NCBI RefSeq assembly: GCF_000026545.1 | Contig: NC_011601.1 | DNA length: 64,000 bases | From: Escherichia coli O127:H6 str. E2348/69 | GTDB lineage: Bacteria > Pseudomonadota > Gammaproteobacteria > Enterobacterales > Enterobacteriaceae | Reading direction: 5' to 3' (one strand) | In this document: in pieces, positions 30,001 through 33,000 of the stretch | Layout: each line of letters begins with the position of its first letter | Numbering within the stretch: position 1 is the stretch's first letter | Program-made: the position numbers

Positions 30001-33000
30001 GATGGTAACCAGCGGCACGTTGTAAATACCGTTGAGCTGTTTCATCCAGCTATACAGCCCCTGCGGCGCGTTGGCGATCCACGGCGCGACCATCACCGAA
30101 ACGATGGCGATAAAGAAACCAAATTTGCGCCCGACGGTGACCAGCTGTTGCGGCTCGGCATTCTGGTTAATGATGCGCCGGTAAATACCCATACTGAATA
30201 ACGTACTGGCGCTATTCAGAAAGCCGTTGAAGGTACTGATCACCGCACCAAATAACACCGCACCGAAGAAGCCCACTAGTGGCACCGGCAGAACGTTATT
30301 GACCAGCGTCGGGTAGGCCATGTCGGCTTTCGGTAAATCCTGATACAGATGAAACGCAATCAACCCTGGCAGCACCAGTACCAGCGGGTCGAGCATTTTC
30401 AGCACCGCCGTTAACAGCGCCCCCTTTTGCCCTTCCGCCAGGCTTTTTGACGCCAGCGTGCGTTGCACGATGCCCTGATTTGTACACCAGTAAAAGGTGT
30501 TCACCAGAATCAAACCGGTAAATGCCGCGCCAATCGGCAAGGGATCGGTCGGGCCGCCGACTGAGTTTAATTTCTCGGCGTGAACGGTGGTGAGTTGCTC
30601 AATGCCCTGCATAAAGCTGCCCTTGCCCATCGCGATCAGGCCAAATACCGGCACCATCAACCCGCCAATAACCAGCCCAATACCGTTAATGGAGTCCGCC
30701 ACTGCCATTGCGCGCAGTCCGCCGATCACCGCATACAAAATTCCCGCCAGACCAAGCAAAATAACCAGTAACCAGATAGCCGCACCATCGGAAAGTTGTA
30801 GCGACTCACCCACATGAAACAGGCTGTTGAGCGCCAACGCGCCGGAATAGAGAACAATCGGCAGAAAGCAGACGCCGGTGGCAATGAGGAAGCAGAAGTC
30901 GATGATAATACGCGTCGTTTTATCATAACGTTCCTCCAGAAAATCGGGGATGGTGGCAATGCCGCGCTTCAGATAGCGCGGTAAAAAGATTAGCGCGAGG
31001 AAGATCAGCGTCACTGCAGAGGTGACTTCCCAGCCCATCACCGACATGCCACTTTTGTAGGCCTGCCCGGAAAGGCCGACCAGTTGTTCCGTGGAAAGGT
31101 TGGTTAGCATTAACGAAGCGGCAATAACCGGCGCTTTTAGTGAACGTCCGGCAAGAAAATAGCCTTGTTGCGATCCGGTATCTGTTTTACGGACCTTCCA
31201 CCAGGTGATGACCGCTACCAGCAGCGTAAAACCGACAAAACTCAAGATTTGTAACGAATTCATCTCATAGCCCTTATTTATGTTTATGTCCCGGACGCAT
31301 GAATATAGGGAGAGGTAAAATGCGTCGGGTCAGGCAGTCAGATTCTTAAAATACAAACGTCGTATCCCTGAACGGATTGTTTTCTGTTAAGTTCAGGTTG
31401 TGAGCATAATTCGCCGGAGGGATATTAAAATGAATGGAAAATTGCAAAGTTCGGATGTAAAAAACGAAACTCCGTACAATATTCCCTTATTGATTAACGA
31501 AAATGTGATCTCCAGCGGAATTTCTCTGATATCGCTCTGGCATACCTACGCCGACGAGCATTACCGGGTGATCTGGCCGCGGGACAAGAAGAAACCGCTT
31601 ATCGCCAACTCATGGGTTGCGGTGTATACCGTACAAGGATGTGGGAAAATTCTTTTAAAGAATGACGAACAAATAACTCTGCATGGCAACTGTATTATAT
31701 TTTTAAAGCCAATGGATATTCACTCTTATCACTGTGAAGGTTTAGTCTGGGAACAGTACTGGATGGAATTTACCCCCACCAGTATGATGGATATTCCCGT
31801 CGGTCAGCAAAGCGTTATTTATAATGGCGAAGTTTATAATCAGGAACTCACCGAAGTTGCTGAGTTAATTACTTCACCAGAAGCAATAAAAAATAATCTG
31901 GCAGTCGCTTTTCTGACGAAAATTATTTATCAGTGGATTTGTCTTATGCACGCAGTCGGTAAAAAAGATCCACAACGGCGGCAAATTGAAAAATTAATTG
32001 CCACTTTACATGCCAGTCTACAACAACGCTGGAGCGTAGCTGATATGGCTGCCACGATCCCCTGTAGCGAGGCCTGGTTGCGTCGTCTGTTTTTACGCTA
32101 TACCGGCAAGACGCCGAAAGAATATTACCTCGATGCGCGTCTGGATCTGGCGCTATCGCTATTAAAGCAACAAGGGAACTCGGTTGGCGAAGTCGCTGAT
32201 ACGCTCAACTTCTTCGACTCCTTTCATTTCAGCAAAGCCTTTAAGCATAAATTTGGTTATGCGCCGTCAGCTGTGCTGAAGAATACGGACAGGTAATAAC
32301 CAGAATGGCGAGTGTGTAAATGACTCGATGATGTTCAGAAATACCAGGCGGAGTACCATTTACGGCGACTCCACCCGGAAAAGAGTTAACCGATACTCCA
32401 GAAGAGCACCGCCAGTAATTGGGGTGTGATAATGCGCAGGAACATCACTAACGGATAGACAGTGGCGTAAGAGAGCGCCGCCGCACCGCTGGTTGGATGA
32501 AGATTATTAGCAAACGCCAGCGCCGGAGGATCGGTCATGGAACCTGCCAGCATCCCGCACATGGTCAGGTAATTCATTTTGGCTAACATCCGCGCCAGAA
32601 TGCCAACAGTAATCAGCGGAACGGCGGTGATCAGGGCACCATAACCAATCCAGCTTAACCCTTCGCCATCCACCAGTGTATGGATAAAATCGCCGCCGGA
32701 TTTCAGGCCAACGACCGAGAGGAACAGTACGATCCCCAGCTCCCGCAGCGCGAGGTTGGCGCTTGGCGGCATAAACCAGTACAGCTTGCCGATACTGCCG
32801 ATACGCCCGAGGATCAACGCCATAATCAGCGGACCGCCCGCCAGCCCGAGTTTCAACGCCGCCGGGAACCCAGGCACAAAGACGGGAATAGAACCTAACA
32901 ATACGCCAAGCCCGATACCAATAAACACTGGCAGCATCTGAACCTGTTGCAGTTTTTGCTGCACATTCCCCAGCACATTGGCAACGGCATCAATTGCGGA

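What the first reader, a model, noticed from the sequence alone, without database searches (positions are those of the whole stretch)
32297..32385. yidL and yidE are adjacent: the glvGBC-yidP block appears absent
From memory, K-12 has the cryptic glv PTS genes and the regulator yidP between yidL and yidE. Here only 89 bp separate the yidL stop from the yidE stop. This is a strain-specific deletion or, more likely, the ancestral state relative to a K-12 insertion.
Basis: partly seen in the sequence, partly recalled or inferred. Interest (0 to 1): 0.3.

Follow-up and report, generated by a model that had tools for sequence, protein, structure and literature searches.

The report
Old deletion scar between yidL and yidE
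The 89 bases between yidL and yidE are what is left after an old 3.9-kb deletion removed a sugar-uptake gene cassette; this is ordinary lineage-specific gene loss in B2-type E. coli, not an ancestral empty site, and the same scar also occurs in three non-coli Escherichia lineages.

Summary
The yidL stop codon ends at 32296, the yidE stop codon starts at 32386, and 89 bp lie between them. K-12 has 3,435 bp there, holding glvG', glvB, glvC and yidP.

- The whole spacer is a decayed remnant of the 3' end of yidP.
- yidL has lost its last codons.
- The order yidE-yidP-glvCB-glvG-yidL-yidK-yidJ is conserved in 12 loci from other enterobacterial genera.

The spacer is therefore the scar of a ~3.87-kb deletion. 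It removed an alpha-glucoside PTS cassette: an EIICB transporter, a GH4 6-phospho-alpha-glucosidase and a GntR-family regulator.

It is not strain-specific. In total 1,136 of 5,426 complete E. coli genomes carry the identical scar, and every strain I recognise among them is B2. Representatives of phylogroups A, E and F keep the block.

The same scar, with the same secondary 10-bp deletion and the same decay substitutions, occurs in E. whittamii, Escherichia sp. E1V33 and strain E69. These are 91-93% identical to E. coli at this locus. B2's yidE also carries whittamii-like tracts, which suggests gene flow across species.

K-12's own cassette is dead too: a 508-bp deletion in glvG and a Q369* stop in glvCB.

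Low interest: ordinary gene loss with a modest evolutionary twist.

The parts
31430..32296 (+). yidL, an AraC-family regulator. It is 288 aa here against 297 aa in block-bearing strains. The C-terminal tail ...KNTDQHPTDASPHN is replaced by ...KNTDR.
   Evidence: Translation and alignment. The Pfam HTH_AraC/HTH_18 match runs to aa 283-285, so the DNA-binding domain is intact. RefSeq annotates it as yidL in E2348/69.
32291..32306 (.). Left breakpoint zone of the deletion. Clear identity to the K-12 yidL tail ends at 32290. The less decayed E69 allele shows that yidL-derived sequence continues to about 32303-32306 (ACCAGCCACAACC against K-12 ACCAGCACCCAACGG).
   Evidence: No direct repeat longer than 5 bp is present at the two breakpoints in the intact sequence.
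32297..32385 (+). The 89-bp spacer. It is the remnant of the 3' end of yidP (about codons 205-238 of 238) and carries a secondary 10-bp deletion.
   Evidence: blastn runs collinearly from yidE into the spacer up to window 32296 = K-12 L001 9513. tblastn finds YidP aa 220-238 at 32330-32386, E 2e-4. The proximal 46 bp are 95.7% identical, E 1e-17.
32297..32340 (+). Distal, heavily decayed part of the yidP remnant: 32/44 identical to K-12 in the fixed register. Substitutions are spread over all three codon positions.
   Evidence: Fixed-register binomial test: 20/32 for 32297-32328, P = 1.4e-4; 32/44, P = 6e-9. Searched on its own, only the 12-14 bp block GATGATGTTCAGAA matches, and 2 of 200 shuffles score as well. 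The codon-position count was done by hand on the alignment.
32340..32348 (.). Site of the secondary 10-bp deletion within the yidP remnant. K-12 reads AGAAATGCCAGCGAATACCAGG; here it reads AGAAATACCAGG. The deletion lies between AAT(G/A)CCAG repeats.
   Evidence: Alignments. The same 10-bp gap is present in L004, L005 and L007.
32344..32378 (-). Stable hairpin starting 10 nt downstream of the yidE stop codon, followed here by UAUUUCUG (window 32343-32336). Probably the yidE transcription terminator (inference).
   Evidence: RNA folds: about 14 pairs; the 75-nt stretch holding the hairpin folds at -19.5 to -26.8 kcal/mol in all 8 Escherichia sequences. C-G to U-G changes in whittamii and E1V33 preserve pairing. 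The consensus terminator scan did not flag it.
32386..34047 (-). yidE, an AspT/YidE/YbjL-family transporter of 553 aa. It is intact.
   Evidence: NCBIfam NF003007, 986 bits. Pfam Asp-Al_Ex x2 plus TrkA_C x2.
32658..34003 (-). Span of yidE holding tracts in which the B2 sequence carries E. whittamii-type variants instead of the E. coli (A/E/F) consensus. The tracts lie at about 32658-32698, 33051-33073, 33256-33516 and 33934-34003.
   Evidence: Site-pattern analysis. Segment identities for window 33217-33493: B2-whittamii 95.3%, B2-E69 94.9%, B2-K-12 87.0%.

Best explanation
The spacer is the scar of a single old deletion of about 3.87 kb.

What the ancestral locus held (shown). Two convergent gene pairs overlapped by 4 bp each: yidL-> <-glvG, and yidP-> <-yidE. 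Between yidL and yidE sat an alpha-glucoside utilisation cassette:
- a GH4 6-phospho-alpha-glucosidase (glvG/aglB type);
- a PTS EIICB transporter (glvCB/aglA type);
- a GntR/UTRA-family regulator (yidP).

What the deletion did (shown). It ran from the last codons of yidL to about codon 205 of yidP. It removed glvG, glvCB and 85% of yidP. It left a slightly shortened YidL with an intact HTH domain and about 100 bp of the yidP 3' end.

What happened afterwards (shown and inferred). The remnant later lost 10 more bp. Its distal half decayed (about 27% substitutions, spread over all codon positions). The half next to yidE stayed nearly unchanged. I infer this is because that half forms the hairpin that terminates yidE transcription, and because recombination with block-bearing E. 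coli can refresh it.

Mechanism (inferred). Illegitimate recombination at little or no homology. No repeat longer than 5 bp and no mobile-element gene is present.

Consequence (inferred from the homologous Klebsiella AglA/AglB system). B2 strains cannot take up and cleave alpha-glucosides such as isomaltose and the sucrose isomers by this route.

Spread of the scar. The scar is identical by descent in B2 E. coli and in three non-coli Escherichia lineages. It coalesces more recently than those species do, so the loss allele most likely moved between lineages by homologous recombination. The direction was probably from a cryptic-clade lineage into the B2 ancestor; this step is the least certain.

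The confidence of 0.9 applies to the core claim: a deletion scar of an ancestral cassette, shared across a lineage. For gene flow between species I put confidence at about 0.6, and for the direction into B2 at about 0.45.
For: Remnant of yidP:
- A collinear blastn alignment runs from yidE through the spacer to window 32296.
- The proximal 46 bp are 95.7% identical, E 1e-17.
- The distal 32 bp match 20/32 in the fixed register, P = 1.4e-4.
- tblastn finds YidP aa 220-238.

yidL tail lost.

Ancestral synteny:
- 12 loci from Citrobacter, Klebsiella, Kluyvera, Dryocola, Pseudocitrobacter and others have yidE-yidP-glvCB-glvG-yidL-yidK-yidJ.
- 49 of 80 loci have yidP next to yidE, including E. albertii.
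- Intact cassettes occur in O157:H7 (phylogroup E) and IAI39 (F).

The block is not a mobile island: GC is 51.9% against 49.9% in the flanks, no integrase or IS is annotated, and repeats at the ends are 5 bp or shorter.

Cassette identity: TIGR02005 at 959 bits (cut-off 607), GH4 N- and C-terminal domains, GntR plus UTRA. Function of the homologues is taken from PMC5309279.

Distribution: 1,136 genomes carry the scar, 4,269 carry the block, and together these make 5,405 of 5,426.

Shared scar: the alleles of B2, E. whittamii, E1V33 and E69 are collinear without gaps over 153 bp, with the same 10-bp deletion and the same decay substitutions. Those lineages are 91-93% identical to E. coli across the locus.

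Gene flow:
- B2 and whittamii differ at 1 of 57 sites in the scar island but at 13 of 89 sites in the flanks (Fisher P = 0.009).
- yidE in B2 carries whittamii-type tracts.

Hairpin conserved.
Against: The distal remnant is not detectable as yidP by an unanchored search. Its homology rests on the fixed register.

The exact breakpoints and any microhomology cannot be reconstructed, because both ends have decayed.

The terminator role of the hairpin is only inferred. The consensus scan did not call it and the U-tract is imperfect.

The gene-flow argument rests on a 57-bp island and a single gene.

Phylogroups D and G, and E. fergusonii, E. marmotae and E. ruysiae, were not sampled. The genome scan was not exhaustive: it did not even return an ordinary E. 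coli representative.

No phenotype was tested.
Confidence: 0.9

Rival explanations
1. Ancestral empty site. In this reading yidL and yidE were originally adjacent, and the K-12 lineage gained glvGBC-yidP by insertion.
For: Several other taxa also have yidL next to yidE: Citrobacter youngae, C. sedlakii, C. werkmanii, Salmonella arizonae, Trabulsiella and Pluralibacter. Their spacers show no yidP remnant.
Against: The window's spacer is a frameshifted fragment of yidP, and a fragment cannot precede the whole gene. The full synteny is found in 12 loci from other genera and in E. coli phylogroups A, E and F. The block has normal GC content and no mobility genes or long terminal repeats. The junctions in Citrobacter and Salmonella are different sequences, which indicates separate events.
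Confidence: 0.02
2. The deletion arose within the B2 ancestor of E. coli and was later exported by recombination into E. whittamii/E1V33 and E69. Gene flow ran in the opposite direction from the one I favour.
For: The scar island is nearly identical between B2 and whittamii/E1V33, which fits transfer in either direction. B2 strains are abundant potential donors.
Against: This requires at least two separate exports into lineages that are 8-9% diverged from each other. E69 carries the most divergent scar (7/57 differences) and the least decayed yidL tail, which suggests long residence outside B2. Within the yidE tracts, B2 matches whittamii at nearly all sites where whittamii differs from the E. 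coli consensus, as expected if B2 was the recipient.
Confidence: 0.2
3. Ancient balanced or neutral polymorphism. In this reading the deletion predates the split between E. coli and the cryptic clades, and both alleles were inherited vertically (incomplete lineage sorting) without later transfer between species.
For: There is a long stem of about 13 shared decay substitutions before the scar alleles diverge, so the deletion is old. E69's scar differs from B2's at 12% of sites, which fits deep vertical descent.
Against: Incomplete lineage sorting predicts coalescence deeper than the species split. B2 and whittamii are instead more similar in the scar (1/57) and in the yidE tract (95%) than across the locus as a whole (91.6%). 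Phylogroup F, close to B2, has the block, so the polymorphism would have had to persist through many nodes.
Confidence: 0.15
4. Adaptive loss. In this reading the cassette was lost, and the loss allele spread, because its presence is costly in the niches of B2 and the cryptic clades.
For: Loss or inactivation is recurrent.
- The B2 scar is in 21% of genomes.
- The K-12-type 508-bp glvG deletion is in about 48%; K-12 itself also carries Q369* in glvCB.
- A 79-bp yidP deletion occurs in some strains.
- Separate losses occurred in Citrobacter, Salmonella and others.

PMC5309279 reports apparent toxicity of strong expression of the B. subtilis homologue GlvC in E. coli.
Against: Recurrent loss is equally expected from neutral decay of an unused pathway. 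About 30% of E. coli genomes retain a full-length glvG region. No fitness data exist.
Confidence: 0.15

Closest known systems
The 'cryptic' glvCBG-yidP locus of E. coli K-12 (b3681-b3684)
   Same: It is the same chromosomal position and the same cassette. It is also non-functional: K-12 lacks 508 bp of glvG (deleted between AGTGGTTC repeats) and has a Q369* stop that splits the EIICB gene into glvC and glvB. PMC5309279 describes the K-12 homologues as cryptic or truncated.
   Different: K-12 keeps 3.4 kb of the block, an intact yidP and the full-length yidL. The window has lost everything except about 89 bp of yidP. The two inactivations are independent events.
The Klebsiella pneumoniae AglA/AglB and Bacillus subtilis GlvC/GlvA alpha-glucoside PTS with phospho-alpha-glucosidase
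   Same: The deleted E. coli genes belong to the same families: TIGR02005 alpha-glucoside EIICB and a GH4 enzyme. They are syntenic with the Klebsiella cassette next to yidE. [quoted passage not shown]
   Different: Those systems are characterised and functional. Here the system is absent, and the substrate range of the intact E. coli version (for example in O157:H7 or IAI39) was not tested.
Lineage-specific metabolic gene-loss scars in E. coli and Shigella, such as the cadA region deletions in Shigella/EIEC (recalled from general knowledge)
   Same: A chromosomal catabolic module is deleted in one lineage, a junction remnant is left behind, and neighbouring genes are kept.
   Different: There is no evidence here that the lost genes interfere with virulence. 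The scar is also shared across species boundaries, which is not a feature of the classical examples.

Membership tests
Deletion scar (gene loss), as opposed to an empty insertion site | A fragment of a deleted gene is retained at the junction | tested here: met
   The spacer corresponds to the yidP 3' end: the proximal 46 bp are 95.7% identical (E 1e-17), the distal 32 bp match 20/32 in the fixed register (P 1.4e-4), and tblastn finds aa 220-238.
Deletion scar (gene loss), as opposed to an empty insertion site | The flanking gene is truncated relative to the filled state | tested here: met
   YidL is 288 aa here against 297 aa, and its tail is replaced. All block-bearing E. coli examined have the 894-bp yidL overlapping the glvG stop by 4 bp.
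Deletion scar (gene loss), as opposed to an empty insertion site | Outgroups carry the filled state at the same position | tested here: met
   Twelve loci from other genera show the full yidE-yidP-glvCB-glvG-yidL-yidK-yidJ order. E. albertii has yidP next to yidE.
Genomic island or mobile insertion (for the K-12 block) | An integrase, transposase or tRNA at the border, terminal direct repeats, and atypical base composition | tested here: not met
   No such genes are annotated in the K-12, O157 or IAI39 blocks. GC is 51.9% against 49.9% in the flanks, and the longest repeat shared by the two ends is 5 bp. No tRNA scan was run on the block, so tRNA absence rests on the record annotations.
Alpha-glucoside PTS with phospho-alpha-glucosidase cassette (AglA/AglB, GlvC/GlvA type), for the deleted block | An EIICB transporter of the alpha-glucoside subfamily | tested here: met
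   The O157 protein scores 959 bits against TIGR02005 (cut-off 607.3).
Alpha-glucoside PTS with phospho-alpha-glucosidase cassette (AglA/AglB, GlvC/GlvA type), for the deleted block | A family 4 glycoside hydrolase encoded next to the transporter | tested here: met
   PF02056 (224 bits) and PF11975 (188 bits). RefSeq names it 6-phospho-alpha-glucosidase. No NCBIfam equivalog reached its cut-off.
Alpha-glucoside PTS with phospho-alpha-glucosidase cassette (AglA/AglB, GlvC/GlvA type), for the deleted block | Demonstrated uptake and hydrolysis of alpha-glucosides by the E. coli version | not testable with these tools
   Only data for the Klebsiella and Bacillus homologues are available, via PMC5309279.
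Rho-independent terminator (for the hairpin after yidE) | A G+C-rich stem-loop directly after the stop codon, followed by a U-tract | tested here: inconclusive
   A stem of about 14 bp starts 10 nt after the stop and is conserved in 8 Escherichia sequences. The tail is UAUUUCUG in scar alleles and UAUUCGCUGG in block-bearing alleles. The consensus scan did not report it. No 3'-end mapping is available.
Allele introgressed between species | Local coalescence shallower than the species divergence, with tract-like clustering of donor-type variants | tested here: inconclusive
   There is 1 difference in 57 sites in the scar against 13 in 89 in the flanks (P 0.009). Clustered whittamii-type tracts occur in yidE. 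B2-whittamii identity is 95% in the main tract against 91.6% locus-wide. The regions are small, the direction is unresolved, and no genome-wide test was possible.

The most novel reading that the evidence does not exclude
The loss allele did not simply arise in B2. It is an old scar haplotype that crossed species boundaries within Escherichia, from a cryptic-clade lineage into the ancestor of phylogroup B2, and was then fixed there because losing the alpha-glucoside PTS cassette was advantageous. The near-invariant 57-bp scar island and the improved hairpin-plus-U-tract after yidE would then be selected features rather than chance leftovers.
Probability: 0.12. Interest if true: 0.4.

Novelty: new member of a known kind. 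Interest (0 to 1): 0.18.

Why it matters
The finding mainly corrects a K-12-centred view. K-12 is not the odd one out with an extra insertion. The cassette is ancestral to Enterobacteriaceae and is decaying in E. coli by several independent routes:
- complete deletion in B2 (21% of complete genomes);
- a 508-bp glvG deletion in about 48%, including K-12, which itself also carries a nonsense mutation in glvCB;
- a full-length glvG region retained in about 30%.

In practice, the 75-bp scar (window 32278-32352) marks this deletion haplotype, and every carrier I recognise is B2. The result also predicts that some E. coli (for example O157:H7 and IAI39), but not B2 or K-12, may grow on isomaltose and the sucrose isomers.

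The identical scar in E. whittamii, E1V33 and E69, together with the whittamii-type tracts in B2's yidE, gives a small, clean example of recombination between E. coli and the cryptic clades. None of this is surprising to a specialist.

Tried and rejected
- Promoter and terminator consensus scan of 31900-32800: nothing in the spacer.
- Rfam search of 31000-35500 at E <= 1: nothing in the spacer; the only real hit is the known ROSE element upstream of ibpA.
- Unanchored blastn-short of the distal 44 bp against the intact block: not significant on its own, with 2 of 200 shuffles scoring as well. I therefore used a fixed-register test instead.
- Literature searches for glvC, glvB, glvG or yidP together with phylogroup or B2: no paper describing this deletion. 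One call failed on a term that was too short.
- The one genome with an 87%-identical glvG (BS-01), which I took for a possible cryptic clade with the block, is an error-rich assembly of an ordinary block-bearing strain.
- The one scar genome with only partial coverage (B19374) is a B2 strain with a further 14-bp deletion in the scar.
- Microhomology at the breakpoints cannot be established, because both ends have decayed; repeats are 5 bp or shorter.
- The genome-contig scan did not return E. fergusonii, E. marmotae, E. ruysiae or an ordinary E. coli representative, so I draw no inference from their absence.
- Phylogroup assignment of all 1,136 carriers was not possible with these tools. It rests on strain names I recognise: E2348/69, Nissle 1917, ABU 83972 and EC958/ST131.
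- The junctions in Citrobacter and Salmonella arizonae were checked for the same scar. They are different sequences with REP-like hairpins and no yidP remnant.
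Full report
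**Observation**

The window encodes yidL at 31430-32296 (+) and yidE at 32386-34047 (-). The two stop codons are separated by exactly 89 bp, 32297-32385. In K-12 MG1655 the same two genes are separated by glvG (pseudogene), glvB, glvC and yidP, which together take 3,435 bp. The query stretch around the finding (window 31400-34100) is 100% identical to EPEC strain E2348/69, and RefSeq annotates yidL and yidE as neighbours there.

**What the 89 bp are**

A sensitive blastn of the window against the K-12 locus gives two collinear blocks. Window 28058-32290 matches K-12 up to 33 bp before the end of yidL. Window 32296-37773 matches K-12 starting 104 bp before the end of yidP. The spacer is therefore not anonymous intergenic DNA. 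It is the 3' end of yidP.

- The 46 bp next to yidE are 95.7% identical to the intact gene (E 1e-17).
- tblastn recovers YidP residues 220-238.
- The distal part is much more decayed and is not found by an unanchored search. In the register fixed by the proximal match it still agrees at 20 of 32 positions (P = 1.4e-4) and at 32 of 44 overall.
- The substitutions fall on all three codon positions (about 5, 3 and 5, counted by hand on the alignment). That is the pattern expected for decay after loss of function.
- A 10-bp piece between two AAT(G/A)CCAG repeats is also missing.

On the other side, YidL is 288 aa instead of 297 and ends ...KNTDR instead of ...KNTDQHPTDASPHN. Its AraC-type HTH domain, which ends at residue 283-285, is untouched.

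**Ancestral state**

O157:H7 (phylogroup E) and IAI39 (phylogroup F) carry an intact version of the block. It consists of a 1,323-bp 6-phospho-alpha-glucosidase gene, a single 1,617-bp PTS EIICB gene and yidP. glvG overlaps yidL by 4 bp, and yidP overlaps yidE by 4 bp.

A scan of one genome per species with YidE returned 80 loci. A tblastn map of them shows the following.
- Twelve loci from other genera have the complete order yidE-yidP-glvCB-glvG-yidL-yidK-yidJ. They include Citrobacter braakii, Klebsiella oxytoca, two Kluyvera species, Dryocola and Pseudocitrobacter.
- In 49 of the 80 loci yidP lies directly next to yidE. E. albertii is one of them.

The block has ordinary base composition (51.9% GC against 49.9% in the flanks). 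It has no integrase or IS, and no repeat longer than 5 bp at its ends. The filled state is therefore ancestral, and the window carries a deletion of about 3.87 kb relative to the intact form.

**What was lost**

- The EIICB protein scores 959 bits against the alpha-glucoside-specific PTS model TIGR02005 (cut-off 607).
- The hydrolase has both GH4 domains.
- YidP is a GntR plus UTRA regulator.

According to PMC5309279, the homologous Klebsiella AglA/AglB and Bacillus GlvC/GlvA pairs allow E. coli to grow on methyl-alpha-glucoside and isomaltose. [quoted passage not shown] The same paper regards the K-12 homologues as cryptic or truncated.

I confirmed that K-12's copy is dead in two ways. It has a 508-bp deletion inside glvG between AGTGGTTC repeats, and a Q369* codon that splits the EIICB gene into 'glvC' and 'glvB'.

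**Distribution in E. coli**

A 75-bp query specific to the scar finds 1,136 of 5,426 complete genomes, all at 95% identity or better. The strains I recognise are all phylogroup B2: E2348/69, Nissle 1917, ABU 83972 and EC958. The list also includes laboratory K-12/K1 hybrids (EV36 and, apparently, its derivative KMS2001).

The K-12 block is found at 80% coverage or better in 4,269 genomes. Scar genomes match only its last 134 bp, so they hold no second copy. Only 1,650 genomes keep the glvG segment that K-12 lacks. This gives roughly 30% with a full-length glvG region, 48% with the K-12-type deletion and 21% with the scar.

The deletion is lineage-wide, not strain-specific. Minor further decay also occurs: a 14-bp deletion in the scar of strain B19374 and a 79-bp deletion in yidP of some block-bearing strains.

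**Shared scar outside E. coli**

E. whittamii (L004), Escherichia sp. E1V33 (L005) and a strain deposited as E. coli E69 (L007) also have yidL next to yidE. Their junctions are collinear with the window, without a single gap, over the last 153 bp. They include the same 10-bp deletion and the same decay substitutions. Across the locus these three lineages are 91-93% identical to E. coli (B2, K-12, IAI39) and 91-94.5% identical to each other. The three E. coli strains are 96.4-98.1% identical to one another. The scar is therefore identical by descent in four well-separated lineages.

By contrast, the yidL-yidE spacers of Citrobacter youngae, C. sedlakii, C. werkmanii, Salmonella arizonae, Trabulsiella and Pluralibacter are unrelated short sequences with REP-like hairpins and no yidP remnant. 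These are independent losses.

**Evidence for gene flow**

- Between B2 and E. whittamii the scar island (32292-32348) differs at 1 of 57 sites, while the immediately flanking 89 bp differ at 13 sites (Fisher P = 0.009).
- Of 78 sites where B2's yidE differs from the consensus of K-12, O157 and IAI39, most carry the E. whittamii/E1V33 or E69 base. They cluster in tracts at about 32658-32698, 33051-33073, 33256-33516 and 33934-34003.
- In the largest tract B2 is 95% identical to whittamii and E69 but only 87% identical to K-12.

Coalescence shallower than the species split points to recombination between lineages rather than retained ancestral polymorphism. Three cryptic lineages carry the scar, and E69 has the most divergent copy with the least decayed yidL tail. 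I therefore favour an origin outside E. coli with import into the B2 ancestor, followed by erosion of the imported flanks through recombination with other E. coli. The direction is not settled. The regions are short, and E. fergusonii, E. marmotae, E. ruysiae and phylogroups D and G were not sampled.

**Why half the remnant is conserved**

On the yidE-sense strand a hairpin of about 14 bp starts 10 nt after the stop codon in all eight Escherichia sequences examined (the 75-nt stretches holding it fold at -19.5 to -26.8 kcal/mol). C-G to U-G changes in whittamii and E1V33 keep the pairing. In block-bearing strains this hairpin lies inside the yidP coding sequence. In scar alleles the 10-bp deletion places UAUUUCUG directly after it.

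I infer that it is the yidE terminator. That role would explain the conservation of window 32344-32385 while 32297-32340 decayed. The simple terminator scan did not report it, and this remains an inference.

**Verdict**

This is a real feature that was correctly observed. Its preferred interpretation was wrong. It is an ordinary lineage-specific loss of a dispensable catabolic cassette, recognisable by a clean scar. Two side results are modestly interesting: the same scar is shared with cryptic Escherichia lineages, and the adjacent yidE is a mosaic. I found no publication describing either, but neither would surprise a specialist.

Noticed in passing
window 28010-28057 (between yidH and yidJ): yidI is absent. 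K-12's 592 bp between yidH and yidJ, which hold yidI, are replaced by about 48 bp. The contiguous yidH-yidJ junction is present in 1,412 of 5,426 genomes. That is more than carry the glv scar (1,136). IAI39 (phylogroup F) lacks yidI but keeps the glv block. The cryptic-clade loci have a ~590-bp segment there. Whether this is an insertion or a deletion was not determined.
   Followed up: partly
L001 (K-12) 6174-8604; L002 (O157:H7) 2575-5513: K-12's glv cassette is degraded in two ways. A 508-bp deletion in glvG lies between AGTGGTTC repeats, and Q369* splits the EIICB gene into glvC and glvB. About 2,619 genomes share the glvG deletion, and only 1,650 retain that segment.
   Followed up: yes
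window 36100-36400 (yidR): Further runs of E. whittamii-type variants occur in B2's yidR, and identity to K-12 is only about 90-94% at 35600-36600. The mosaic therefore extends beyond yidE.
   Followed up: no
window ~39991-41544 (dgoD): An IS4-like ISEc13 element interrupts dgoD (galactonate dehydratase) in E2348/69. The annotation shows two dgoD fragments flanking the transposase, and the alignment to IAI39 breaks there.
   Followed up: no
window 25289-25447 (between ivbL and ysdE/emrD): The tisB/istR toxin-antitoxin region looks deleted or replaced. The window has 158 bp here against 691 bp in IAI39, and no tisB is annotated in E2348/69 although it is annotated in IAI39.
   Followed up: no
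window ~16071-17839 (adeD): adeD (adenine deaminase) is annotated as frameshifted in E2348/69.
   Followed up: no
window 35190-35262 (-): A ROSE_2 RNA thermometer lies upstream of ibpA (96.6 bits, E 8e-22). This is a known element and is also annotated in RefSeq.
   Followed up: yes
L076 and L080 (Superficieibacter) 9672-17530; L031 9675-11110: The yidP-glvCB-glvG cassette is tandemly duplicated next to yidE in two Superficieibacter genomes, with the second copy's YidP about 56% identical to the E. coli query YidP. L031 has two adjacent yidP paralogues.
   Followed up: no
L022 (CACSKA010000004.1): A contig deposited as 'Chryseobacterium sp. 18061' carries a typical enterobacterial ibpAB-yidE-yidP-glv-yidLKJ locus, with YidE 85% identical to E. 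coli. The record is probably mislabelled or contaminated.
   Followed up: no
H82 and H83 (EV36 mutant 5a, KMS2001): Laboratory strain EV36, a K-12/K1 hybrid (from memory), and KMS2001, recorded only as a laboratory strain of similar size, carry the B2-type scar. This suggests that this region of their chromosomes derives from a B2 (K1) parent.
   Followed up: no
L003 5991-6062 equivalent; L088 ~3000-3010: Decay of the locus is continuing. Some block-bearing strains have a 79-bp frameshifting deletion in yidP. B2 strain B19374 has an extra 14-bp deletion inside the scar.
   Followed up: yes
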